A DNA stretch of 64,000 bases, taken from an uncultured Acidimicrobiales bacterium (lineage in GTDB: Bacteria; Actinomycetota; Acidimicrobiia; Acidimicrobiales; SZUA-35). The stretch spans positions 33,164 to 97,163 of the forward strand of contig CAWCAF010000016.1 of assembly GCA_963793385.1 (NCBI GenBank), read 5' to 3'. Under the pieces are notes generated by a model, which saw nothing but the letters and a program-made list of their open reading frames with translations, did not search any database and was not told the origin of the DNA. The translations under genes and the position numbers were made by a program. Of the stretch, positions 1-59,414 are shown in pieces (positions within the stretch are counted from its first letter, which is position 1; every line of letters begins with the position of its first letter).

Positions 1-1804
1 GTCTGGTGAGGTTCACCACGACCGACGTACACGCCCTGGTTGCGGAGCAGCTTCCAGGCGAGCTGGTTGCCCGACTCGAGCGCGTCGACCGCTCGACCTC
101 CCTTGGCGGCAAGGTCATCGGCGTCGGCGAAGTCGATCGCCACGCGTACCTCGGAGCGAAGATCAGCCTCCGCCGGCGGCGCGATGGGCGGGGTTGTGCT
201 CCTCCGTGCGTCGGCCACGATCGACGCCAACCTGGCGGCGACCGTCGCATCGTCGGGTCCCCCGACGACCACCGCTCCTCGCAACGGAGCTTTCGTCTCC
301 AGCGCCGACGGCTTGACACGGCGGACCTGAGAATCAGCGCCCTGTTTCGAACCGTTCCCGTTGCTCACGATCCTCCCCGGGATGTACTCCTCGAGCACGA
401 TGTGGAAGTTGGTGCCACCGAACCCGAAGGCGCTGACACCTGCAGATCTGACCTGACCGTCGGCCGCCTTCCACTCCTGCAGTTCGGTGTTGGTGTAGAG
501 CGGAGAGTTCTCGAAATCGATGTTGGGGTTCGGCTTGGCAGCCCCCAACGACGGTGGAATCGTCTTGTGGTGGAGGGCCAAGGTCGCCTTCAACATGCCG
601 GCGGCACCGGCGGCACCTTTGAGATGGCCGATATTGGATTTCACCGAACCCAGCGGCACCGAGTGACGCGGTAGACCGAGATCGGAGAAGACACTGGTGA
701 GACTGTCGAACTCGACGACATCTCCGACCTTGGTGGACGTTCCGTGCCCTTCGACGTAGGTGGCGGTGTCGGGTGTGCGTCCCGAGTTCTCCCATGCCCG
801 CTCCGACGGCGAGCATCTGGCCGACCGGATTGGGGGCGGTGATGCCCTTGCCCCTGCCGTCGCTGGCGCCGCCGACACCACGGATGACCGCATAGATCCG
901 ATCCTTGTCCCGTTCGGCATCGGCCAGACGCTTGAGGAGCAGCACCGCAGCGCCCTCGCCCATGACGAAGCCGTCGGCCCCGTCGCCGTAGGGGCGGGTG
1001 CCCGAGGCCGAGAGGGCGCCGATCTTGCTGAACTTCACGAAGCTCGACGGGCTCATGTTGCCATCGACACCACCGGTCAGCACCGCGTCGTAGTCGCCTT
1101 GCTCCAGACCTTCGATCGCCGCATCGACCGCAGCCATGGCCGATGCGCAGGCGGCATCGACGACGAAGTTCGGCCCGTTGAAGTTGAACAGGTTGGCGAC
1201 ACGACCGGCGATGATGTTGGCCAGCTCACCGGGCATCGTGTCCTCTGTGATCTCGGGAAGGCGGCGGTGGACACCGGCGGTCCATTCGGCTGAGATCGCC
1301 TCTTTGGTCGCTGGGTCCAGGGCCGAGTAGGACGGTGCGTGGGCGAGCTCATCGGCGTACTCGGGGAAGAACACCCGCAATGCGGTCTTGTAGTGACGAT
1401 CGCCGGCCATGGCGTTACCGAACACGACCGCGGTCCGCTCGGCGTCCAGTGCCCGATCGGGGTAGCCGTAATCGATCAGCGCCTGGCGGGACGCGGCGAT
1501 GGCCCATTTCTGGGTGAGGTCCATCGAATCGCCGACCCTCGGCGGAACCGGAAGTCGCCATTCGAGCGGCGACCATTCCCAATCGCGGACCCATCCGCCG
1601 ATCCTCGAGTACGTCTTGTCCTCGGCCTGGCGGTCCTCGTCGTAGTAGAGGTTGAGATCCCAACGCTCCGAATCGACCTCGCTGATGCTGTAGCGGCCAT
1701 CGACCAGGTTCTGCCAGTAGGTCGGCGACGTCCGGGGCGTCGGGCAGGATTGCACCGACACCGACGATGGCGATTGCTCGCCCAGCTTGCTCAACCATTC
1801 TCAT
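1..1804 (-). CDS. Type I polyketide synthase, N-terminal ketosynthase domain (partial; continues past the left edge; frame breaks near ~1725 and ~800)
   Basis: Minus-strand translation gives 'AIAIVGVGAILPDAPDV' (ORF 1415..1804). It continues as 'YWQNLVDGRYSISEVDSERWDLNLYYDED...NFVVDAACASAMAAV' (ORF 334..1794; active-site Cys codon 1147-1149). After ~800, hand translation of a third frame gives 'YVEGHGTSTKVGD', 'GSVKSNIGHLKGAAG' and 'AFGFGGTNFHIVLEE', then a linker that reaches position 1. Confidence 0.88.
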
Positions 1805-1888: not shown

Positions 1889-3608
1889 TCAGTTGGTACT
1901 TGCGTGGCTGTTGATCGCCGCGGCCACCACATCCATATCGGACAGAAGGCCGGCCTGGGCCCGGGCGATCGCCGAGGTGCCCGCGAGCACGGCGAGAGCG
2001 TCGGCGTCGACCGTCCCGGGGTCGGCGGCGCCGAGCACCCAGCGCACACCTTCGACCGCCACCTTGTTGGCCGCCTCGCGGGCGAACACCCGCGACATGA
2101 CCGCGAGTTCGTCAGCGTTGAATGTTGTCTCGGCCTTGTCGCTCAAGTTGCCCGGCGGCGGCGTTGGCAGCCCTCCGGGCGAACGACCCCGCACACTCGA
2201 CGAACGATGCGAGCTCACCTATGCGGAAGAGGAGATGCTGGTTCCGGGTCAGCCGCTGCAGGCGAGCCGTCTCCATGACCCCGGCGAGGGCACGGGCCGC
2301 CAGCGCCGCGACATCGGCGCCCACGGTGGGATTGGTCCTGGCCAGCTCGTCCAGCCGATCGGCGGCATCGAGGTAGAAGCGGCCCCGGCTCTTGAGGTGC
2401 TGTTGCCAGCGGTCCCGGCCGATGGTCATCTCCATGATCTCCGAGGTGCCCTCGTAGATCGTGGTGATGCGCACGTCGCGCTTGTACTTCTCGACCATGT
2501 ACTCCTTGGTGTAGCCGTAGCCGCCGTGTGCCTGAATGGCGGCGTCGGCCGCCGCGTTGCCCGCTTCGCTGGCCATGTACTTGGCGATCGCCCCCTCGGT
2601 GTTGAGCATCTCTTCGCCGTCGTCGATCCTGACGGCGGTCTCCTCGATGAACGACCGTGACGCTTCGAGCCGCACGGCGTGCGGCACGATCAGCTTGTGG
2701 GTGTACCCCTGCTTCTCCGACAGCGGGCCACCGGCCTGGATCCGCTCGGTCGAGTAGTCGATCGCACGTCGCAGCGCCGCCCAGCCGGCGCCGAGTCCGA
2801 ACGCAGCCACCATCAGCCGGGTGTAGCCGAAGACCGCCTGGGCCTGGACCAGCCCGAGCCCCTCGGCCTCACCGACCAGGCGGTCGACATCCGACCTCGA
2901 CGTCCTGAAGGCTCAGCGCCGACGGTGTTGCTGGCCCGGATCCCGTGCTTGTCCTCGGGCTTGCCCTTGCGTGAACCCCTCGGCATCGGCGTCGACCACG
3001 AACCAGGATGGGCCGCCGGGGGCCATGGCCAAGATCGTGTAGAGGTCGGCGTAGGCACCGTTGCTGATCCACTGCTTGTTACCGCTGATCCGGTAGGCGA
3101 CAACCTCGCCGTCGGACTCCACGGGCACCGCCACGGTCTTCAGCGATCCGAGATCGCTGCCGGCCTCGGGCTCGGTGGCACCGTAGGCCATCAGCGAACC
3201 CTCGTTGGCGAGTTGCGTCAACCACCGCTTGCGCTGTTCAGGCGTTCCCCCGAACACGATGGGGTCGCTCCCAAGGAAGGTTGCCAGCACGCCGGTAGCG
3301 ATGCCGACGTCGACCGCCGCCAGCAGCTCGCAGACCCGGTAGACATCGAAGGCGCCACCGCCCATCCCGCCGTACTCCTCGGGGATGAACAGCAGCGAGA
3401 TGCCGAGTTGGTCGCCGCACATCCCCCGCACGATCGCCTCGGGGAACTCGTCGGCTTCGTCGATCTCCAGAAGCTTGGCGTCGGGCAACTCACCCTCGGC
3501 AAACATGGTGACCGACTCCATCACCATCTCTAGGGTTTCGCGGTCGAGCCCGTCTGTCACTTCGGTTTCCCCCTCATGGGTTGCTGATTTCTGGTTCACC
3601 ATCGACAT
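1889..3608 (-). CDS. Acyl-CoA dehydrogenase, long (~570 aa) form; frame breaks near ~2900 and ~2150-2200
   Basis: Three collinear minus-strand ORFs (2913..3770, 2112..2813, 1889..2218) carry '[18 protein letters not shown]', 'GNKQWISNG' and '[34 protein letters not shown]'. Start assigned at 'MSMVNQ' (ATG complement 3606-3608). Confidence 0.85.
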
Positions 3609-3827
3609 CACGTCGAGTCGATCGCACGGGCCGCAAGACCCCGCGAAAAGCCTAGCCCCGGGCGTCGAACCGTTCGCACTCGAACGGAGCGATAATCGGA
3701 CCGCGGAAGAAGAATCGGCGACATCGCAGCTGCGGGACGATTCTCGGCGACACCTCGCGCCCGGTTCCACGGTGCGGGACGTTTGGCTCCGGTAGATTCT
3801 CGTCGCAGTATCAACACCGTGACCGAA

Positions 3828-22980: not shown

Positions 22981-23767
22981 TCAGCCGGCGAAGCCGGTGA
23001 CGCCTCCGTCAATGGGGATGACCGCACCGTCGATGTAGGCGCCGGCCCGACTGGACAACCAGAGCACGGTCCCGGCGATGTCCTCGGGTGAGCCGATCCG
23101 CCCGAACGGAACGGTCGACTCCACCATCGCCCGGCCCTCACCCTCGAGCGCCCCCGCCATCATCTGTGACTCGAACGGTCCCGGCGCGATCGAGTTGACC
23201 GTGATGTGATCATTGGCCAGCTTCTGACCCAGGTGCCGGGCCATCATGTGCACCCCCGCCTTGGAAGCCGAATAGGAGAAGTTGTCGATCCAGGTGGGTA
23301 CGGCGATGCCGTTGATCGATCCGGTCATGATCACCCGAGCCGGATCCTCGGCGCTGGCCGCAGCGCGCAGCAGGGGCAACAGCATGCTGGGTGAGGAAGA
23401 ATGGCGATTTCAGGTTGATGTCGATCACCTTGTCGAACCCGATCTCGGGGAACTTGCCCAGCGGCGCCACCCAGTTGGCACCGGCGTTGTTGCACAGGAT
23501 GTGGAGCTTGTCCTCGTGCGATTCGAACTCGTCGGCGAAGGACCGAACCCCTTCCGACGTGGAGAGATCGGCCGGGAGGGAGACACACTCGCCCAGTTCG
23601 CTCAACCGTTCGGCGGCCTCGTCGCACGCTGCCGCCTTCCGGGCGGTGATGTACACCTTGGCCCCACCGGAGAGCAATCCGGTGGCCATCATGTAGCCGA
23701 TCCCTCGGGAACCGCCGGTGACGATGGCGGTCTTGCCCTCCACGCTGAACAGTCGAGTCACATCCAT
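22981..23767 (-). CDS. SDR family oxidoreductase (one frame break near ~23390)
   Basis: 'GKTAIVTGGSRGIGYMMA', 'NNAGANW' and 'YSASKAGVHMMARHLGQKLANDHITVNSIAPGPF...IDGGV' (TGxxxGxG, NNAG and YxxxK motifs). Confidence 0.85.
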
Positions 23768-23814
23768 TCCGGCAGGCTACGGCACGGTCACGCCGCCGGA
23801 GAACCGAACGCTCC

Positions 23815-25097: not shown

Positions 25098-25529
25098 ATG
25101 GCACCGATGAGCACACCGATGGCAGGCTGTCTGGAGCGATGGCACGAGTTCCTGAGCGACGGGGCCGATTCCCATGAGCTTCTGGAAGCGATCCTCCATC
25201 CCGAATCCGTCTTTCTCTCACCGATCGTCTTCACACCCCAGCGGGGCCGAGACCTCGTCATGGGATACCTGCTGGCGGCAGGGCAGACCCTGGTCGGTAC
25301 CGACGAGCAGCCGTTCCGGTACGTGAAGGAGGTGGTGGACCGACGCCATGCCGTTCTCGAGTTCGAGACCTCGATCGAAGGCAAGTACGTCAACGGTGTC
25401 GACATCATCACCTGCGACCACGACGGCCTCATCACCGAATTCAAGGTGATGATCCGTCCACTGCAGGCGGTCAATCTCGTCCACGAGCAGATGATGGCGA
25501 TGCTCGAGGCGATGAAACCCTCCTCGTGA
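25098..25529 (+). CDS. SnoaL/NTF2-like family protein
   Basis: A 143-aa ORF from the ATG at 25098 with 'LERWHEFLS...LHPESVFLSPIVFTPQRGRDLV...LEFETSIEGKYVNGVDIITCDHDGLITEFKVMIRP', an NTF2-like fold pattern. The assignment rests on pattern only. Confidence 0.55.
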   Translation: MAPMSTPMAGCLERWHEFLSDGADSHELLEAILHPESVFLSPIVFTPQRGRDLVMGYLLAAGQTLVGTDEQPFRYVKEVVDRRHAVLEFETSIEGKYVNGVDIITCDHDGLITEFKVMIRPLQAVNLVHEQMMAMLEAMKPSS

Positions 25530-25548
25530 AGCCGTCGATCCCGGATCG

Positions 25549-26389
25549 ATGAGCCATTCGCTGCCTTTCCGTGAGGTCGATGTGTTCTGCACCACCGGTC
25601 TCGACGGCAACCCTCTCGCCGTGATCCACGACGCCGACGGCCTCTCGGGTGCGTCGATGCAGAGGATCGCCAACTGGACCAATTTCTCCGAGACCACGTT
25701 CCTGCTCACCCCCGAGGACCCCGCTGCGGACTACCGGGTGCGCATCTTCACCCCCTCCGAGGAACTCCCGTTCGCCGGTCACCCCACGATCGGCTCGGCC
25801 CACGCATGGCTGGAGGCCGGCGGCATCCCGGCGACGCCCGGCAGGGTGGTCCAGGAGTGTGGTCTCGGCTTGATCGACCTTCGGGCCGAGGGCGAACGAC
25901 TGGCGTTCGAAGCGCCCGAACTTCTCCGCCAGGGTCCTGTCGGCTGAGGCGGATCGGGTGCGGACGCTGGCGATCCTCGGTCTCGAGGATCACGAGGTGG
26001 CGGCGATCGAATGGATCGACAACGGACCCGGGTGGATCGGCGTGGAGCTGTCCGATCCGGGCCGCATCGGCTCCCTCAGTCCCCGACCGGTCGATGACTC
26101 GCCGGTCGAAGTCGCCGTGGTGGCGATCGGATCGACGCTCCCCGGCGTCGACGTCGAGCTCCGGTGCTTCTTCGGCACGGACATCACCGAGGATCCCGTC
26201 ACCGGCTCGGCCAACGCCGGGTTCGCCAAGTGGTTCGACCGGGCGAACCGGATCCCGTTTCCGTACACGGCTGCCCAAGGCAACTACATCGGAAGAGACG
26301 GACGGGTGTACGTGTCCCGGGACAGCAGCGGCCGCATATGGGTCGGCGGCGCCGCCACGACGGTCGTCACCGGTTCGATCACCGTGTGA
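25549..26389 (+). CDS. PhzF-family isomerase-like protein (one frame break near ~25940)
   Basis: 'FREVDVFCTTGLDGNPLAVIHDADGLSGASMQRIANWTNFSETTFLL...YRVRIFTPSEELPFAGHPTIGSAHAW', then 'FFGTDITEDPVTGSANAGFAKW...GNYIGRDGRVYV'. Confidence 0.85.
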
Positions 26390-26401
26390 TCAACCCCGTT
26401 G

Positions 26402-26957
26402 ATGGCACATCCCTTACCCTGACCGAGTGCGACCCGAGATCGAACTGCCCGGTGACGATGGGACCACGTGGCGGCTGTCCGAACGGCGGGGCACCACGGT
26501 CGTCTTGATCTTCCACCGCCACATCCATTGACTGCCCTGTAAGGCACACGTCGTCGCCGTGCGCGACCGACTGAACGACTTCGGGCCCGACGTGGAAGTC
26601 GCCCTCATCACCTTCAGTGACCCCAAGTACCTGCGCGCCTACCGCGGTCGAACCGGGTGGGACCGGCCGATCCTGGTCGACACCGATCGGTCGGTGTACC
26701 GCCAGTTCGGCTACGACCGAGGCTCGGTGTGGCGGGTGTACGGATGGCGAGTGCTGCGTCGGTATGCCCAGATCTTTCGTCGTGACGGATTCGGCGATTA
26801 CGAAAAGGCCACCGAGGACACGCTGCAACTGGGCGGCAACGCCGTGATCGACCCCGGGGGTGCGACCTCGTGGGTGTACCGGGGTGCAGGACCCGACGAT
26901 CGTCCGTCGGTCGACGAACTGATCGAACGGGTCGAGCAGGCCAGACGGAAGTACTGA
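26402..26957 (+). CDS. Peroxiredoxin-like (AhpC/TSA_2, PRXL2-type) protein with in-frame TGA at the first position of the CxxC motif (candidate selenoprotein, or a nonsense-disrupted gene)
   Basis: One frame reads '..PEIELPGDDGTTWRLSERRGTTVVLIFHRHIH[TGA 26529-26531]LPCKAHVVAVRDRLNDFGPDVEVALITFSDPKYLRAYRGRTGWDRPILVDTDRSVYRQFG...LGGNAVIDPGG'. The frame is the same on both sides of the TGA. The start is uncertain: GTG at 26427, or ATG at 26402 if a 1-nt indel is assumed. Confidence 0.7.
26529..26594 (+). promoter_or_regulatory. TGA plus downstream stem candidate (possible bacterial SECIS-like element)
   Basis: The 7-bp perfect complement CACGTCG (26547-26553) / CGACGTG (26588-26594) begins 16 nt after the TGA, and shorter inner pairings are possible. 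GC-rich DNA forms such stems by chance, so this is only suggestive. Confidence 0.25.
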
Positions 26958-26969
26958 GCCCTCGTCGAC

Positions 26970-28318
26970 CTACGACGGATCTGTGACCTGGCCGAGGAAG
27001 AGCATCTCGCCGGTGGAGGAGTGCTCGATCCAGAAGAGGAACGGACGGTCGGCGGTGAATGTGGCGGGCTCCGGGGCGGACGTCAGGCCGATGATGAGCG
27101 CGGTGGCTGCCGCCGCCTCGGTGCCTTCCTCGTCCAGGGCGATGAACGTCTTGTGAAACGCGTCGGAGACGTAGAGCTCGCGCATCTCGGTGATGCCGGT
27201 CAGATCGGCGCCGCTGGTCGGCGACGGCGGCTCGAACGCGGTCGTCATGCCGAGTTGCTGGAGCGCCGGCTTGAGAGCGATCTCGGCGTCGAACTCGAAT
27301 GACGGGAGCGTGATCTCGACCCGGCGGTCACCCCAGGCGATGTCCAGATCCTCCGGTTCCAGTGCGGCGGCCAGGTCGGCCGGCGACCCCGACCTCGGAA
27401 GCAGAACCACCATGGCGGCGTCACCGGCGTAGGGCAGGCGGACGGCTTCGAACAGCCCGGTCTCGGCATAACCGGTGCGCAGGCTGGCCTGCATCAGCGG
27501 TACCCGGATCTCGGAGTCGTCGAGCAGTGTGAACGAGCCCGGCGCCGTGAGTTGGGGATCGAACGCTTCGTACCAGTTGGCGTAGAACCATATGGCGTTC
27601 ACGAGCGCCAGTCGGGTGTCGACGGTGATACCGCCTTCCGGGATGAGGTCCTTGATGCGATCTTCGGTGGTCTCCTCGACCCATCGATTGATGATGGCTC
27701 GGGAGCCGTCCGGGTCTCCGGCGTAGTCGAGAAGGCGGAGGCCGGCCCCGTAGTCGGTGGCCAGAACGGTCAGGTAGTCGTCGCGGAATGGGTAGCCGCC
27801 CTGCCCCCAGGCGGAGTTGGCGGGCCGGATGGTGAAGGGTTGGCGCGTGTCGGACTCACCCATCGGCGCGGGAGGGGTGGCCAGCGCTGTGTCGATGTGG
27901 TTGCGGACGGCGTGGAGGGTGTCGTCGTCCACGTCGAGGTGGAGCACCTGGGCGATTTCTTCGGCGGTGGTTCCCCGCGCCCCGGGATAGAGCATGCTCA
28001 GGGCGGTGGCGATCGAGTACGGGGAGATCATCGTGTTGTCGTCGGTCGGCGACGATGTCCCAGGAGGTCGAGTCCGAACGCGGCATCGGCCGCCACCACG
28101 GCGGCGATGTCGGATTCGGTGACCGAGGCCGACGTGCGCGGCAGATCGACCCGGACCTCGTCGCCGGGGGTGAACGCCTCGGTGCGATTCCCGGGATCGA
28201 CCGTCGTGGGAGTGGGGGGAGTTGTCGTGGTCGCCGCTCCGTCTGTGGATCCACACCCCGCCGTGACCATCGCCAAGGCGAGTAGCGGAGCAAGGAACCG
28301 GGTGTTCGTCATGCTCAT
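26970..28318 (-). CDS. Serpin family lipoprotein (one frame break near ~28040)
   Basis: The N-terminus 'MSMTNTRFLAPLLALAMVTAGCGS' is a signal peptide with a lipobox. The serpin core has 'SPYSIATALSMLYPGARGTTAEEI', 'VNAIWFYANWYEAF' and the hinge/RCL 'FIALDEEGTEAAAATALIIGLTSAPEP', followed by 'FTADRPFLFWIEH'. Confidence 0.85.
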
Positions 28319-28414
28319 GAGACGGTACCCGGACCACGGTGGTTCCCATGGAATCGATCGCGACGGCCAGGCGCCGATCGAGCTCGACCCGGGACGCCCG
28401 TACGATGTGCTGCT

Positions 28415-38874: not shown

Positions 38875-39754
38875 TTGCAGGTTCCAGCACCGTTTGAATA
38901 CGAGCGGGCCACCAGCGTCGACCACGCCATCGCGCTCATGGAGCGCCTTGGCGACGAGGCACGCATCGTGGCCGGCGGACACAGTCTGCTGCCGATGATG
39001 AAGCTCCGGCTGGCCAATGCCGGAGTATCTGATCGACATCAACGATCTGGTGGACGAGCTCCAGTACATCCGCTTCACCGACGACGAGGTGAGGATCGGG
39101 GCGCTCACCCGCCATCAGCAGCTCCTCGACAGTGACGAGCTGGCCGCGGTGTTCCCGATCTTCCGTGACGCCGAGAAGGTCATCGCCGATCCCGTCGTCC
39201 GCAACAAGGGCACCCTCGGCGGATCGTTGTGCCAGGCCGATCCGTCCGAGGATCTGAGCGCCGTGTGCGATGCGCTCGAAGCCAAATGCGTCATCCGCAA
39301 CAGCTCTGGAGAACGGGTGGTCGAGATGCACGACTTCCACCGGGGCCCGTACGAAACGGCTGTGGAGGACGGCGAGATGCTCACCGAGGTCCGCATCCCG
39401 ATCAAGCCGAACTCGAGCAGCGCCTACCACAAGGTCGAACGACGGGCCGGCGACTGGGCGGTCGCCTCGGCCGGCGCCGCGGTGACCATGAACGGCGAGG
39501 TGATCGCCGACGGCCGGGTCGGTCTGTGCGCGGTCGGGCCGAACCTGACCAACGTCGGGCCGATCTCCGACGCCCTCCGCAACCAGCCACCGTCGGAGGA
39601 GTTGTACGCCCGAGTGGGCGAGCTTGCAGCCGCCAACGCCTCCCCGGCCACCGACACCCGCGGCACCGCCGCCTACAAGACCCACCTCGCCAAGGAGCTG
39701 ACCATCCGATCGCTCCGCAAGGCGGTCGCCCGAGCGACCGGACAGGAGATCTGA
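38875..39754 (+). CDS. coxM: Aerobic CO dehydrogenase medium (FAD-binding) subunit (one frame break near ~39015)
   Basis: 'QVPAPFEYERATSVDHAIALMERLGDEARIVAGGHSLLPMMKLRLA', then 'YLIDINDL...NKGTLGGSLCQADPSEDL...YHKVERRAGDWAVASAGA...RGTAAYKTHLAKELTIRSL'. A TTG start at 38875 follows 'GAAAGGGAAGAAA'. Confidence 0.85.
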
Positions 39755-39755
39755 C

Positions 39756-40246
39756 ATGGAAATCTCGATGAACGTCAACGGAGACGACGTCGTACACGAC
39801 GTCGAACCCCGCACGCTGCTGGTTCACTTCCTCCGCGACCACATGGGCCTCACCGGCACCCACTGGGGATGTGACACCTCCAACTGCGGGACGTGCGTGG
39901 TCTGGGTCGACGAGGAACCGGTCAAGAGTTGCACCCATCTCGCCGCCATGGCAGGGGGACATCGCGTCAAGACCGTGGAAGGTCTGGAAACCGCCGACGG
40001 TCTCGATCCGGTCCAGGAAGGCTTCATCCAGTGCCATGGCCTCCAGTGCGGCTTCTGCACCCCCGGCATGATGATGACCGCTCGGGCTCTGCTCGACCGC
40101 AATCCCGACCCCTCCGAAGAGGTCATACGGGAAGCGATCAGCGGCCAGATCTGCCGGTGCACCGGCTACTCGACCATCATCCGCTCCATCCAATGGGCGG
40201 CAGCCAAAGAGCGGGAAACCTCCGTGTCGCTCGAAGGGAGCGTGGC

Positions 40247-40250
<4 letters not shown>
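39756..40250 (+). CDS. coxS: Aerobic CO dehydrogenase small ([2Fe-2S]) subunit
   Basis: Intact ORF with 'GTHWGCDTSNCGTCVVWVD...SC' and 'QCGFCTPGMMMTA...ICRCTGY'. Confidence 0.92.
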
Positions 40251-42653
<2,403 letters not shown>

Positions 42654-56210: not shown

Positions 56211-56389
56211 TCGTCGGGAACCCAGGTGACAGAACCCATGAAACCAAGACGGCGTGGGTCGTCCGTACCCGGGCTCATCCCGGGACGAGGTCGATTCGAG
56301 GAGCTAGAGTCGACTGGTGTCAACAGCAACTTCAATCGCTCAGGCCGGCATGTGACAGTGATCCGAACACTTCGTGACCCGGTCGAGCC

Positions 56390-56878
56390 TTGGTGAACGC
56401 GCAACGTTCGGCGGCACCTCGCCCAACGATCGGATGGCGCGAATGGGTCTCGTTGCCGGCCATCGGCGTCCCGTGGATCAAAGCCAAGGTCGACACCGGC
56501 GCCCGAACGTCGTCGATCCACGCCTTCGACATGGTGAGGATCGAAGGCCCGGAAGGACCGATCGTGCGCTTCGAGATCCACCCGTGGCAAAAATCGTCCC
56601 GGGACGCGATCGTCGCCGAGCTCCCGGTCTTGGAGGACCGGACGATCCGCTCATCCAACGGCTCGATCGAGGTGCGTCCGGTGATACGAACCGCAGTGGG
56701 CGTTGGCACCCACGCTCTGATCGTCCATTTCACGCTGACTCGGCGAGATGAAATGGGCTTCAGAATGCTTCTGGGCCGCCAGGCGATTCGACGGCGGTTC
56801 CTTATCGATCCGGCCAAGTCCTTCCAGGCCGGCCGACCACCCAAGGACGTGCTGCGGGCCAATCGGAGGAGGCAATGA
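56390..56878 (+). CDS. DUF785 / retropepsin-like 'ATP-dependent zinc protease' family protein (RimK-associated, RimB-like)
   Basis: 'IGWREWVSLPAIGVPWIKAKVDTGARTSSIHAFDM...VRFEIHP.......RPVIRT...LTRRDEMGFRMLLGRQAIR'. Start at TTG 56390 or GTG 56393. Confidence 0.75.
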   Translation: MVNAQRSAAPRPTIGWREWVSLPAIGVPWIKAKVDTGARTSSIHAFDMVRIEGPEGPIVRFEIHPWQKSSRDAIVAELPVLEDRTIRSSNGSIEVRPVIRTAVGVGTHALIVHFTLTRRDEMGFRMLLGRQAIRRRFLIDPAKSFQAGRPPKDVLRANRRRQ

Positions 56879-57864
56879 TGGCGACCACGATCGCGACCGT
56901 CGTTTTCGATCGGGGGTCTCTCGATCAGACCGGGTCAGAAACTGGCCAACGTCGAACTGCCGATCGGGCAGCTCGTCACCGGCGTCCCCATTGCACGCTG
57001 CCCGTCCAGGTCATGCACGGCAAACACGAAGGACCGACCGCGTGGATCAACGCCGCAATCCACGGTGACGAGGTGAACGGCGTCGAGATCATCCGCCGGG
57101 TCCTGGCCGAGATCAATCCGAGCTCGCTGCACGGCACCCTTCTCGCCGTCCCGGTCGTCAACGGCCACGGTTTCATGTCCGGTGTCCGCTACCTGCCGGA
57201 CCGGCGGGACCTGAACCGGGCCTTCCCCGGTTCGGAACGAGGCCCGCTCGCCTCACGGATCGCCCATCTCTTCAGCCGGGAGGTGGTAGCCCGCTGCTCG
57301 GTCGGCATCGACCTGCACACCGGTTCGGACCATCGGACCAATCTGCCTCAGATCCGTGCCGACCTCGACGATCCGGCAACTCGACGGTTGGCTCAAGCCT
57401 TCGGCGCTCCGGTGATGCTGCACGCACGCACGAGGGACGGGTCCCTTCGTCAGGCGGCCGCCGACGCAGGGGCCACCGTCCTGCTCTACGAGGGCGGTGA
57501 GGCGTGGCGGTTCGACGAGCCATCGATCTCGACCGCCACGAGCGGTGTTCTCCGCGTCCTCAACGAGATCGGAATGTTGAAAGAGCAACTGCACGGCAGG
57601 ATCGAGCCGCCCGCCTCGATCGAGTGTCGGTCATCTCGGTGGGTTCGTGTCCGCAGGAGTGGTATCGCCCAGATCTGGTCAAGCGTCGGAGAGGTCGTCA
57701 CGAAAGGACAACTCATGGGCCGGGTCCATGACGCGTTCGGACGACGGCTGGCGGTCGTGAAGTCGAACACCGACGGAATCGTCATCGGGCTGAATCTGTC
57801 GCCGATTGTCAACCAAGGCGACGCCGTAGTTCACATCGCCCAACCCAAGGAGCACCTCGATTGA
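56875..57864 (+). CDS. Succinylglutamate desuccinylase/aspartoacylase (AstE/AspA, M14-like) family protein (two compensating frame breaks near ~56935-57000)
   Basis: 'PVQVMHGKHEGPTAWINAAIHGDEVNGVEIIRRV...NRAFPGS..G.LASRIAH...GIDLHTGS' shows the zinc-ligand HxxE pattern. An alternative frame gives 'VELPIGQLVTGVPIA' just upstream. Confidence 0.78.
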   Translation: MMATTIATVVFDRGSLDQTGSETGQRRTADRAARHRRPHCTLPVQVMHGKHEGPTAWINAAIHGDEVNGVEIIRRVLAEINPSSLHGTLLAVPVVNGHGFMSGVRYLPDRRDLNRAFPGSERGPLASRIAHLFSREVVARCSVGIDLHTGSDHRTNLPQIRADLDDPATRRLAQAFGAPVMLHARTRDGSLRQAAADAGATVLLYEGGEAWRFDEPSISTATSGVLRVLNEIGMLKEQLHGRIEPPASIECRSSRWVRVRRSGIAQIWSSVGEVVTKGQLMGRVHDAFGRRLAVVKSNTDGIVIGLNLSPIVNQGDAVVHIAQPKEHLD

Positions 57865-59067
57865 AACTCGCCATCCTCTCCCGAGCGCCGAGCAGCTACA
57901 GCACTCGCCGATTCAAGGTCGCCGCCAGTGAACGAGGGCACGACGTCAAGGTCCTGAACACGTTGCGATTCGCCATCGACCTCGCCGGAGACGAACCGGA
58001 TCTGCAGTACCGAGGCAAGCCGCTCTCGGACTACGACGCGATTCTTCCCCGCATCGGCGCATCGATCACCTACTTCGGAACGGCGGTCGTCCGGCAGTTC
58101 GAACAGATGGACGTGTATACGCCGAATGGGTCCAACGGCATCCTCAATTCGCGAGACAAACTCCGTTCGTTGCAGATCCTGTCGCGGCACGACATCGCCA
58201 TCCCGCCCTCCACGTTCGTCCGGGATCGACTCGATGCGGCCGCCGCCATCCGGCGGGTCGGCGGCGCCCCGGTGATCATCAAGCTGCTCGAGGGCACGCA
58301 GGGCATCGGCGTCATTCTGGCCCCCGACGCCAAGATCGCCGAGGCGATCATCGAGACGTTGCACAGCACGGGAACCAACGTGCTCCTGCAGAAGTTCATC
58401 GCCGAGAGCAAAGGCAAGGACATCCGCGGCTCTTGTCGTCGGCGATCGGGTGGTCGCAGCGATGCGGAGGGTCGCCCAGGGTGACGAGTTCCGCAGCAAC
58501 GTCCACCGCGGCGGATCGGCCGAACCGGTCCAGATCAGCAAGGAGTTCGAGACCGCAGCGGTGAGAGCTGCCCAGATCATGGGGCTCAAGGTCGCCGGGG
58601 TCGACATGCTCGAGAGCGACTCCGGACCGATGATCTTGGAGGTCAACTCGTCGCCAGGACTCGAAGGCATCGAAACGGCAACCGAGCTCGACGTGGCCGG
58701 GGCGATCGTCGACTACATCTCCAACCAGGTCGCGTTCCCCGAACTCGACGTGCGCCAACGTCTGACGGTGAGTACCGGCTACGGCGTGGCCGAGATCCTC
58801 ATCAGAGATGACTCGGAGTTCGTCGGGAAGACCCTGGAGGAATCGGGGCTTCGAGACAAGGACATCGCGGTGCTGTCGCTGCATCGCGACACCCTTGTGG
58901 TCCCCAACCCGAGGCCGGTACGGGTTCTCGAAGGAAACGATCGGCTGCTGTGCTTCGGGAACCTCGAGCAGATGCGAGGTCTGATACCGGCACGACGGAA
59001 ACGGCGGGCCAAGGTGAAGGAACTCCCTGAAGAACCGCTCATCGACCACTCGGAGCTTCCCCAATGA
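57861..59067 (+). CDS. rimK: RimK-family ATP-grasp alpha-L-glutamate ligase fused to a C-terminal TrkA_C (RCK_C) domain (one frame break near ~58430)
   Basis: '[18 protein letters not shown]...[21 protein letters not shown]...[16 protein letters not shown]...[15 protein letters not shown]', then '[26 protein letters not shown]...[25 protein letters not shown]'. The TrkA_C-like tail is '[59 protein letters not shown]'. Confidence 0.85.
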
Positions 59068-59414
59068 ACTCCCGCAGGTCCATTCCGATGTTCAGCATCA
59101 GTCGAACGATCGTGGTGAGAGCGAGCGGCAGCATCGACGTCGACGGCATCACGCAGTTGGACAGTATTCTCCGGGATCTGATCCACGAACACGGGATCAC
59201 AGATCTGGTGCTGGACCTGTCCTCGGTCGAACACATCGACCCCCGGGGCGCCGGACTGCTCGATTGGGTTCAGGATTCGCTCACCAAACGGGGCGGGGTC
59301 CTGGAGCTGCGGTTGCCGACGGCGCCGTCGGACCATCTGATAGGGATGTCTGCCGAGATCCCTTCCTTCATCTCCTTCGCCTCGCAGAACAAGGCCACCG
59401 ATCCGAGAGAATGA
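59064..59414 (+). CDS. STAS-domain protein (anti-sigma-factor-antagonist-like)
   Basis: '[67 protein letters not shown]'. The ATG overlaps the rimK stop. Confidence 0.7.

What the first reader, a model, noticed from the sequence alone, without database searches (positions are those of the whole stretch)
26402..26957. In-frame TGA at the first position of the CxxC redox motif of a peroxiredoxin-like protein (candidate selenocysteine, UxxC)
Seen in sequence: one continuous frame reads 'PEIELPGDDGTTWRLSERRGTTVVLIFHRHIH-TGA-LPCKAHVVAVRDRLNDFG...'. The TGA is at 26529-26531. Homology-like sequence continues in the same frame on both sides, so this is not one of the window's indel frame breaks.

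Established knowledge: in the thioredoxin-fold AhpC/TSA_2 (PRXL2-type) family, the beta-strand 'vvLvFxRxxG' is followed directly by CxxC at the start of helix 1 (for example 'RRFGCxxCR'). Sec/Cys replacement at the first redox position (UxxC) is the classic signature of bacterial thiol-oxidoreductase selenoproteins.

A 7-bp stem, CACGTCG (26547-26553) / CGACGTG (26588-26594), starts 16 nt downstream and could be the base of a SECIS-like hairpin. That evidence is weak in GC-rich DNA.

Inference: this is either a genuine selenoprotein gene or a TGC/TGT->TGA substitution that happens to hit the catalytic codon.
Basis: partly seen in the sequence, partly recalled or inferred. Interest (0 to 1): 0.7.

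Follow-up and report, generated by a model that had tools for sequence, protein, structure and literature searches.

The report
Selenocysteine codon in peroxiredoxin-like gene
The in-frame TGA is very probably a real selenocysteine codon in a small thioredoxin-fold redox enzyme of an uncultured Acidimicrobiales bacterium; the enzyme belongs to a selenoprotein family that is already recognised, and automatic gene callers routinely cut it in half.

Summary
TGA at 26529-26531 lies in one open frame (GTG 26427 to TGA 26957) that encodes a 176-residue protein of the AhpC/TSA_2 (PRX-like2) type with the motif HRHIH-U-LPC.

The codon is neither an error nor a nonsense mutation. In 80 related loci from different GTDB species, almost all Acidimicrobiales MAGs, 79 carry TGA in this column and one carries TGC. 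The 30 codons upstream are open in all of them and evolve like coding sequence. Contigs from three independent sediment metagenomes show no other letter at the codon. Full-length Cys homologues read RHL[AG]-C-LPC in the same column.

With U read as C, the protein passes NCBIfam NF040769, "SelL-related redox protein". A conserved hairpin follows the UGA at 26550-26571. It shows compensatory changes and strong constraint on synonymous sites, and I read it as the SECIS.

Sec-decoding genes could not be checked for this genome, because the window holds none. Published surveys report SelA, SelB and SelD in Ilumatobacter and Microthrix. Seven related contigs also carry a UGSC-family selenoprotein gene.

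Verdict: a genuine selenoprotein gene and a new member of a known kind. Interest is modest.

The parts
26427..26957 (+). Complete selenoprotein gene: GTG start, 176 codons including UGA-Sec at codon 35, terminal TGA. It encodes a SelL-related / PRX-like2 thioredoxin-fold redox protein.
   Evidence: Searches give the frame. Searches give PF00578 52.3 bits, PF13911 47.8 bits and NF040769 125.6 bits against a cutoff of 120, with U read as C. One search shows V or M in the start column in the window and L001-L008.
26529..26531 (+). In-frame UGA read as selenocysteine (U35).
   Evidence: TGA in 79 of 80 species loci and TGC in L054. No other letter in Logan contigs of runs X1, X2 and X4. The first Cys of CLPC in Cys homologues aligns here.
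26529..26540 (+). Redox motif U-L-P-C (U35, C38).
   Evidence: L36 and C38 are invariant and P37 nearly invariant in 44 family members. In the AlphaFold model of Cys homologue P0100, the equivalent C42 caps helix 43-54 directly after strand 32-36, and C45 lies in the first turn.
26526..26534 (+). Constrained codon context CAU-UGA-CUG around the Sec codon.
   Evidence: The His codon before UGA is CAT in 60 of 63 sequences (38% expected). The Leu codon after it is CTG in 64 of 81 (35% expected).
26550..26571 (+). Putative bacterial SECIS hairpin: 5' arm GUCGUCGC (26550-26557), apical loop CGUGC (26558-26562), 3' arm GCGACCGAC (26563-26571, one bulged C). It overlaps codons 7-14 after the UGA.
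   Evidence: The window MFE fold contains it. 69 of 81 sequences form at least 7 of 8 pairs in one of two registers. 77-78% of cells are paired, against 19-47% when the partner columns are slid. Two synonymous sites covary, C-G 24 and G-C 21 against C-C 7 and G-G 5. Codons +8 to +11 are 89-98% one codon against 35-51% expected.
26955..26957 (+). Terminal stop codon of the same gene, also TGA.
   Evidence: TGA is the terminal stop in 57 of 80 complete family genes, so UGA is an ordinary stop in these genomes and is recoded only locally.

Best explanation
The gene at 26427-26957 encodes a 176-residue thioredoxin-fold oxidoreductase of the SelL-related / PRX-like2 (AhpC/TSA_2) family. The first residue of its CxxC-type redox centre is selenocysteine, giving U35-L-P-C38.

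Inferred mechanism of decoding, from the standard bacterial pathway: the mRNA hairpin 21-42 nt after the UGA (26550-26571, apical loop CGUGC) binds SelB carrying Sec-tRNA(Sec) and delivers it to the UGA in the ribosomal A site. Translation then continues to the ordinary TGA stop at 26955.

Inferred mechanism of the enzyme, from the CxxC chemistry of this fold and from the PRXL2B homologue: the selenolate at the N-terminal cap of helix alpha-1 attacks an oxidised substrate, either a peroxide or endoperoxide or a disulfide. It then forms a selenenylsulfide with C38 and is re-reduced by a thioredoxin-type or low-molecular-weight thiol system.

Shown here: the frame, the conservation of the UGA, the Sec/Cys pairing, family membership, the fold of a Cys homologue, and the conserved hairpin. 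Inferred: actual Sec insertion, SelB binding, the substrate and the reductant.
For: - The frame and the TGA are confirmed.
- TGA is conserved in 79 of 80 species-level loci at 45-89% protein identity, and L054 has TGC.
- No locus has an in-frame stop in the 30 codons upstream. Diversity upstream by codon position is 0.29, 0.21 and 0.50, the pattern of translated sequence.
- Nearly all database homologues are called as proteins of about 130 aa that start just after the TGA. The break is therefore family-wide, not local.
- Cys homologues have Cys in the column.
- NF040769 is passed, and all 44 family members tested match it.
- The AlphaFold model of Cys form P0100 has pLDDT 93.7 and puts the Cys at the helix N-cap. 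Its best PDB match is human prostamide/PGF synthase PRXL2B, 9usa.
- The hairpin is supported.
- Independent metagenome contigs keep TGA while the neighbouring codons vary.
- TGA is also the normal stop of these genes.
- Seven related contigs also carry a TGA-containing UGSC-family selenoprotein gene, NF041046 at 151-153 bits, followed by an 8-bp hairpin with a GUG loop.
- Peng et al. 2016 (PMC5029168, Tables S1 and S2) list SelD, SelA and SelB as present in Ilumatobacter coccineus, I. nonamiensis and Ca. Microthrix parvicella, with 15, 10 and 7 selenoproteins. The record titles of L078 and L021 name these genera, and several further loci are titled Ilumatobacteraceae.
Against: - No selA, selB, selD or tRNA-Sec was found in the 64-kb window or in the flanks of the 80 related loci. 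The rest of this genome could not be reached.
- The thermodynamic signal of the hairpin is weak. The window has z = -0.07 against dinucleotide shuffles and z = -0.13 against synonymous resampling. The family mean is z = -0.63, against -0.21 to +0.03 in control regions.
- RNAalifold returned no consensus structure.
- No Rfam family matched.
- The amino acids V-A-V-R-D-R favour this hairpin in GC-rich codons by themselves.
- The window's assembly carries many single-base frame breaks, so its base-level quality is imperfect. Those errors are indels, not substitutions.
- No protein-level evidence exists.
Confidence: 0.92

Rival explanations
1. The TGA is a nonsense mutation or a base-calling or assembly error in a Cys codon (TGC/TGT to TGA). 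The gene is then a pseudogene or is mis-sequenced.
For: The window has many frame breaks in neighbouring genes: PhzF, an SDR, the serpin N-terminus, a ketosynthase and an acyl-CoA dehydrogenase. A short-read contig of a close strain lacks one base at the PhzF break. A single A-for-C/T change would be enough.
Against: The same TGA stands in 79 of 80 other species and in every contig of three independent metagenome runs. Both sides of the codon are under purifying selection. The window's other defects are indels, not substitutions.
Confidence: 0.01
2. UGA terminates here. The functional products are those the gene callers report: a 34-residue N-terminal peptide, if any, and a separate protein of about 132 aa that starts at GTG 26559 and lacks the redox motif.
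For: Public gene calls give proteins of about 130 aa throughout the family. An in-frame GTG exists at 26559.
Against: The internal start is not a conserved feature: called starts vary among homologues. The upstream 34 codons, including beta-1 and the invariant FHRH-x-x-U-LPC, are conserved as coding sequence in all 81 sequences. Cys forms are single full-length proteins of 178-203 aa. The modelled fold needs the N-terminal strands and the helix-cap Cys.
Confidence: 0.03
3. UGA is decoded at this site without selenium. This could happen through near-cognate read-through (Trp or Cys), or because this lineage has lost the Sec machinery and the gene is a relic.
For: The Sec machinery is unverified for this genome. 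The nucleotide after UGA is C in all 81 sequences; from my own knowledge, not tested here, UGA-C is a leaky stop context in E. coli. Acidimicrobium ferrooxidans lacks SelA, SelB and SelD.
Against: The TGA sits exactly in the catalytic Cys column with Cys-form homologues, which is the classical Sec/Cys signature. A conserved hairpin at SECIS distance shows synonymous-site constraint. A second recognised selenoprotein family occurs in related contigs. Relatives are documented to carry SelA, SelB and SelD. A relic would not stay intact across 79 species.
Confidence: 0.04

Closest known systems
NCBIfam NF040769, SelL-related redox protein (subfamily model)
   Same: With U read as C the window protein scores 125.6 bits against a cutoff of 120, over model positions 4-171 of 173. 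All 44 family members tested match, with a best E-value of 1.5e-44.
   Different: The score is only just above the cutoff. Public gene calls of this clade are truncated at the UGA and carry names such as 'hypothetical protein' or 'AhpC/TSA family protein'.
'Prx-like thiol:disulfide oxidoreductase' selenoproteins (pfam00578; UxxC or UxxU) of Zhang and Gladyshev's bacterial and marine selenoproteomes (PMC2398784, PMC9312934, PMC13188914)
   Same: It matches PF00578, has a UxxC motif, has Cys homologues in the same column, and comes from environmental bacteria.
   Different: That literature class is broad (Prx-like 1, 2 and 3). I could not show which subclass, if any, already contains this Acidimicrobiales ULPC clade. 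The 2026 review table does not list NF040769.
Human prostamide/prostaglandin F synthase PRXL2B (PDB 9usa, C44S/C47S) and the PRXL2 / AhpC-TSA_2 family
   Same: It is the best structural match of Cys homologue P0100 (E = 1e-9, TM 0.69 and 0.76, 22% identity). PF13911 matches. The CxxC sits at the start of helix alpha-1.
   Different: PRXL2B uses Cys, is eukaryotic, and has a lipid endoperoxide substrate. Sequence identity is low, and the substrate of the bacterial protein is unknown.
Eukaryotic selenoprotein L (SelL; a Prx-like protein of aquatic eukaryotes with a UxxU diselenide motif)
   Same: The NCBIfam model name states a relationship. Both have a Prx-like thioredoxin fold with Sec in the CxxC-type motif.
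   Different: SelL has two Sec residues (UxxU) and a eukaryotic 3'-UTR SECIS; this is established knowledge that I did not test. The protein here has a single Sec (UxxC) and an in-frame bacterial-type hairpin.
Typical peroxiredoxins (BCP/PrxQ, for example PDB 2ywn) with the PxxxTxxC active site
   Same: The fold is the same, with weak sequence similarity (E = 0.0015). C38 aligns with the peroxidatic Cys.
   Different: U35 occupies the position of the conserved Prx Thr, and R31 the position of the conserved Pro (alignment). The active site is therefore of the CxxC type, not PxxxTxxC.
Bacterial SECIS of the E. coli fdhF type (stem-loop directly 3' of the UGA, with G and U in the apical loop, bound by SelB)
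   Same: The hairpin lies inside the coding region and starts 21 nt after the U of the UGA. G and U in the apical loop are invariant or nearly so (G in 80 of 81, U in 81 of 81). A similar 8-bp stem with a GUG loop follows the UGA of the UGSC genes in related contigs.
   Different: There is no sequence similarity to any curated model. The stem exists in two registers, and a sub-clade (L004-L008) has a hairpin shifted 3-6 nt towards the UGA. SelB binding is untested.

Membership tests
NCBIfam NF040769 SelL-related redox protein | Whole-protein HMM score at or above the curated cutoff of 120 bits | tested here: met
   125.6 bits with U read as C. All 44 clade members tested match the model at E <= 0.001, best E-value 1.5e-44.
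NCBIfam NF040769 SelL-related redox protein | U/CxxC redox motif in the conserved position | tested here: met
   ULPC in the window. The column is C35, L36, P37, C38, invariant or nearly invariant. Cys forms read CLPC.
Pfam AhpC/TSA_2 (PF13911) / PRX-like2 | Score above the Pfam gathering threshold | tested here: met
   PF13911 scores 47.8 bits against a cutoff of 27. PF00578 scores 52.3 bits against 26.
Pfam AhpC/TSA_2 (PF13911) / PRX-like2 | Thioredoxin fold with CxxC at the N-terminus of helix alpha-1, resembling solved PRXL2 structures | tested here: met
The model has pLDDT 93.7 and C42 caps helix 43-54. The top PDB match is PRXL2B, 9usa.
Bacterial selenoprotein (UGA-Sec recoding) | In-frame UGA conserved among orthologues, with coding sequence conserved on both sides | tested here: met
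   79 of 80 loci carry TGA. No upstream stops occur, and the codon-position diversity pattern is that of coding sequence.
Bacterial selenoprotein (UGA-Sec recoding) | Cys-containing homologues with Cys in the UGA column | tested here: met
   L054 has TGC. 14 full-length Cys forms align.
Bacterial selenoprotein (UGA-Sec recoding) | SECIS stem-loop immediately downstream of the UGA with G/U in a small apical loop | tested here: inconclusive
   The hairpin is conserved, with compensatory changes and synonymous-site constraint. However, energy z-scores are weak, RNAalifold gave no consensus and Rfam gave no match. No bSECIS predictor was available.
Bacterial selenoprotein (UGA-Sec recoding) | selA, selB, selC (tRNA-Sec) and selD present in the same genome | not testable with these tools
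   None is present in the window or in the 80 locus flanks. The rest of the source contig and genome could not be fetched. The only support is indirect: the literature on Ilumatobacter and Microthrix and UGSC selenoprotein genes in related contigs.
Bacterial selenoprotein (UGA-Sec recoding) | Selenium found in the protein | not testable with these tools
   This needs 75Se labelling or mass spectrometry.
Typical peroxiredoxin (Prx, PxxxTxxC) | Conserved Pro and Thr preceding the peroxidatic Cys | tested here: not met
   In the alignment to 2ywn, U35 falls on the Thr and R31 on the Pro. The motif reads RHIHULPC.
Eukaryotic selenoprotein L | Two Sec residues in a UxxU motif | tested here: not met
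   There is only one in-frame TGA. The second redox position is TGT (Cys) at 26538-26540.

The most novel reading that the evidence does not exclude
The actinobacterial ULPC clade of SelL-related proteins may be an undescribed, nearly Sec-fixed selenoenzyme lineage: 79 of 80 species carry Sec, including Ilumatobacteraceae and Microthrix-like organisms. Its SECIS is embedded in codons 7-14 after the UGA, has shifted between registers during evolution, and in one sub-clade lies 2-6 kb from a UGSC selenoprotein gene. Together these would form a dedicated selenium-dependent redox module that current annotation hides, because every member is truncated at the UGA.
Probability: 0.25. Interest if true: 0.4.

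Novelty: new member of a known kind. Interest (0 to 1): 0.3.

Why it matters
The result shows that a stop codon in a raw window can be told apart from the many real frame breaks around it, and that it marks a recoding event. In practice the gene should be annotated as one 176-residue selenoprotein, not as a 132-residue fragment. The same correction applies to hundreds of truncated database entries for this family. Biologically, it adds to the evidence that environmental Acidimicrobiales depend on selenium for thiol and peroxide redox chemistry. It also provides a well-sampled natural alignment (81 sequences) of a bacterial SECIS overlapping coding sequence, which could help train selenoprotein predictors. 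It does not reveal a new kind of system.

Tried and rejected
It is present in the window but absent from the MFE fold. It forms fully in only 3 of 81 sequences. Rejected.
- **RNAalifold on the 81-sequence alignment.** It gave no consensus structure. The likely cause is that the lower stem uses two registers. I scored each register by hand instead.
- **Folding-energy tests.** They are only weakly supportive. I rely on covariation and synonymous-site constraint instead.
- **Rfam scan of 26300-27000.** Only chance-level hits, and no SECIS family.
- **Search for Sec machinery.** ARAGORN found no tRNA in the window and no tRNA-Sec in the 80 loci. A tblastn with E. coli SelD and SelB sequences written from memory, used only as a lead, found nothing in the window or the loci.
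- **Reaching beyond the window.** The window's own protein is not on record in the look-up of encoding contigs.
- **Other in-frame TGA candidates in the window.** None has a redox-like context.
- **Conserved gene neighbourhood.** There is none beyond an antisense ORF artefact and an ICMT-like methyltransferase downstream in 19 loci.
- **Literature search for 'ULPU'.** It returned only irrelevant papers.
- **One script timed out** and was rerun.

Full report
**Observation.** The window reads CAT TGA CTG CCC TGT at 26526-26540. One frame runs from the stop at 26400-26402 to the stop at 26955-26957 and translates as (M)RPEIELPGDDGTTWRLSERRGTTVVLIFHRHIH*LPCKAHVVAVRDRLNDFG...RRKY*. The first start codon in that frame is GTG at 26427. 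The window and its eight closest relatives all have GTG or ATG in that column. The window is 64-73% G+C and holds no tRNA gene.

**Family.** With the stop read as Cys, the protein matches Pfam AhpC-TSA (52.3 bits), AhpC-TSA_2 (47.8 bits) and Redoxin. It passes the curated cutoff of NCBIfam NF040769, "SelL-related redox protein", at 125.6 bits against 120. All 44 clade members that I scanned match the same model.

Against solved structures, only weak sequence matches to BCP-type peroxiredoxins appear. In that alignment C38 falls on the peroxidatic Cys, and the TGA column falls on the conserved Prx Thr. The site is therefore a CxxC-type centre, not a PxxxTxxC peroxiredoxin site.

The model has pLDDT 93.7. 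Its first Cys (C42) caps helix 43-54 directly after strand 32-36, and its second Cys lies in the first helical turn. Its best PDB match is human prostamide/prostaglandin F synthase PRXL2B (9usa, TM 0.69 and 0.76), ahead of many peroxiredoxins.

**Is the TGA real and conserved?**
- A protein search returned 200 homologues. Nearly all of the best 120 are about 130 aa long and cover only the part after the TGA (about 73% of the query). Two of them even start at "MPCKAH", directly after the stop. The break is thus family-wide.
- I fetched 80 related loci from one-genome-per-species GTDB contigs. Almost all are Acidimicrobiales, Acidimicrobiia or Ilumatobacteraceae MAGs, at 45-89% identity. tblastn matched across the stop in all of them.
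- The aligned codon is TGA in 79 loci and TGC in one, L054. The motif is FHRH[IL][HA]-U-LPC.
- None of the 81 sequences has a stop in the 30 codons upstream. Nucleotide diversity upstream is 0.29, 0.21 and 0.50 at codon positions 1, 2 and 3, which is the signature of translated sequence under purifying selection.
- The same genes end with TGA in 57 of 80 cases. UGA is therefore the normal stop in these genomes and is recoded only at this site.
- A second protein search from P0100 found about 20 full-length Cys forms (178-203 aa). It also found many more truncated calls of about 130 aa, including one from a Solirubrobacteraceae MAG.
- Fourteen Cys forms read RHL[AG]-C-LPCREH with their first Cys in the TGA column.

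**Read support.** The source reads were not available. Logan contigs from four sediment-metagenome runs hold near-identical or related sequence. Laid on 26490-26575, 14 contigs from three runs, with word depth up to 121, show no alternative letter at 26529-26531. The neighbouring codons do vary: 26526 C>A, 26528 T>C and 26540 T>C. A sequencing or assembly error is excluded.

**SECIS.**
It forms fully in only 3 of 81 sequences.
- A different hairpin is conserved: GUCGUCGC-[CGUGC]-GCGA(C)CGAC at 26550-26571, starting 21 nt after the U of the UGA.
- Third-codon positions inside it are 89-96% conserved, while flanking third positions are roughly 50:50.
- Against family-wide codon usage, codons +8 to +11 (GTC GCC GTG CGC) are used in 89-98% of sequences where 35-51% is expected (binomial P from 1e-10 to 1e-25). 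The codons either side of the UGA are also constrained: CAT 95% against 38%, and CTG 79% against 35%.
- The lower stem exists in two registers, which explains a covariation between two synonymous sites: C-G 24 and G-C 21, against C-C 7 and G-G 5. An A-U / G-C exchange also links the Val/Ile codon and the GAC/GAT codon.
- In either register 77-78% of cells pair, against 19-47% when the partner columns are slid. Every measure that depends on co-occurrence exceeds all 500 shuffles.
- 69 of 81 sequences form at least 7 of 8 pairs. Five of the others (L004-L008) have a hairpin shifted towards the UGA, CACGUC-GUG-GACGUG.
- Caveats remain. RNAalifold gave no consensus. Folding energy is barely better than synonymous resampling, with a family mean z of -0.63 against -0.21 to +0.03 in controls, and z = -0.13 for the window. 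Rfam has no matching model.
- I therefore call the hairpin a well-supported candidate SECIS, not a proven one.

**Sec machinery.**
- The window has no tRNA and no other TGA with a redox context.
- Neither the window nor the flanks of the 80 loci contain tRNA-Sec.
- A tblastn with E. coli SelD and SelB sequences recalled from memory, used only as a lead, found no hit.
- The rest of the source contig could not be fetched.
- Indirect support comes from three sources. First, Peng et al. 2016 (PMC5029168, Tables S1 and S2) score Ilumatobacter coccineus, I. nonamiensis and Ca. Microthrix parvicella as SelD+, SelA+ and SelB+, with 15, 10 and 7 selenoproteins, and Acidimicrobium ferrooxidans as negative. 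The record titles of L078 and L021 name Ilumatobacter and Microthrix.
- Second, a 2026 preprint reports selC, selA, selD and a divergent selB in all 84 complete Actinomarina genomes, also class Acidimicrobiia.
- Third, seven of the related contigs carry a second gene with a conserved in-frame TGA, 2-6 kb upstream, with the motif IEALAD-U-GSCTSC. It passes NCBIfam NF041046, "UGSC family (seleno)protein", at 151-153 bits against a cutoff of 125. An 8-bp hairpin with a GUG loop follows its UGA.

**Surroundings.** The neighbours are ordinary metabolic genes: enoyl-CoA hydratase, a PhzF-family gene, a serpin on the opposite strand, an S51 peptidase, a zinc ADH, a glyoxalase, two TldD/PmbA genes, a GcvT-like gene, an amidase, a molybdenum hydroxylase with XdhC, and an SDR.

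- No partner gene is conserved across the 80 loci.
- The closest relative, L001, has the same order of ECH, a 143-aa protein, the selenoprotein gene and the serpin, but lacks the PhzF gene.
- Several window genes are split by single-base frame breaks.
- At the PhzF break, a short-read contig of a close strain lacks one base at 25945.

The window's indel quality is therefore poor, which makes the clean, conserved substitution-type TGA stand out all the more.

**Comparison and novelty.** UxxC "Prx-like thiol:disulfide oxidoreductase" selenoproteins have been known since the Sargasso Sea and GOS selenoproteome studies and are listed in current reviews. NCBI curates a model for exactly this subfamily. 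The gene is therefore a new member of a known kind. Three things are mildly new. The Sec form is almost fixed across Acidimicrobiales (79 of 80). Public gene calls for the family are systematically truncated. The SECIS shifts between registers.

**Verdict.** This is a genuine selenoprotein gene (confidence about 0.92). Interest is modest (0.3).

Noticed in passing
window 25516-26389 (break near 25945): The PhzF-family gene is split into two overlapping frames (25516-25947 and 25874-26389; Pfam PF02567 positions 1-104 and 117-281). A short-read Logan contig of a close strain (run X1) lacks one base at 25945. The break is therefore a 1-nt insertion in this assembly or strain.
   Followed up: partly
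window 334-1794, 2112-3770, 22984-23776, 26970-28349 (5' part), 39002-42508, 56378-59414: Many other genes look broken by single-base frame shifts: a ketosynthase-like gene, an acyl-CoA dehydrogenase, an SDR, the serpin N-terminus when compared with L001, a molybdenum hydroxylase cluster, and a gene in about five overlapping pieces at 56-59 kb. This suggests an indel-prone (long-read) assembly or a decaying genome. I checked only the PhzF case against other data.
   Followed up: partly
L056:7162-7776, L063 ~1121, L064 ~3368, L065 ~7292, L068 ~6852, L072:7633-8184, L077 ~4020: A second gene with an in-frame TGA (IEALAD-U-GSCTSCSVHD) lies 2-6 kb upstream of the SelL-related gene in seven related contigs. 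It passes NCBIfam NF041046, UGSC family (seleno)protein, and an 8-bp hairpin with a GUG loop follows 11 nt after its UGA. It is not present in the window.
   Followed up: yes
protein database hits P0002-P0120 and P0136-P0239: Several hundred public gene calls of this family are fragments of about 130 aa that start just after the UGA. They are named hypothetical protein, AhpC/TSA family protein or peroxiredoxin. This is a systematic mis-annotation of a selenoprotein family, and it extends beyond Acidimicrobiales, for example to a Solirubrobacteraceae MAG (P0169).
   Followed up: partly
L054:10102-10104: This is the only Cys (TGC) form among the 80 loci, and it keeps a perfect 8-bp version of the downstream hairpin (GCGGUCGC-CGUGA-GCGACCGC). 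That fits a recent Sec-to-Cys conversion. The record is labelled Bifidobacteriaceae. L020 is labelled Gammaproteobacteria. Both labels are probably binning or labelling errors.
   Followed up: no
L001:9842-10001 compared with window 25529-26427: The closest relative (89% protein identity) has the same flanking genes: ECH, a 143-aa protein and a serpin. It has no PhzF gene between the 143-aa protein and the selenoprotein gene. This is a gene-sized indel between close relatives.
   Followed up: no
19 related loci, about 0.6 kb downstream of the selenoprotein gene (for example L047:2379-3173): A membrane protein with an isoprenylcysteine carboxyl methyltransferase-like C-terminus (…VRHPIY…WEERRL…) follows the gene, on the same strand in 17 of these 19 loci. 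It is absent from the window, and I did not verify it against any family library.
   Followed up: no
window 26970-28349 (- strand): A bacterial serpin (Pfam PF00079, 308 bits) sits directly downstream, convergent with the selenoprotein gene. The L001 orthologue has a lipoprotein-like signal peptide that is frame-shifted away in the window.
   Followed up: partly
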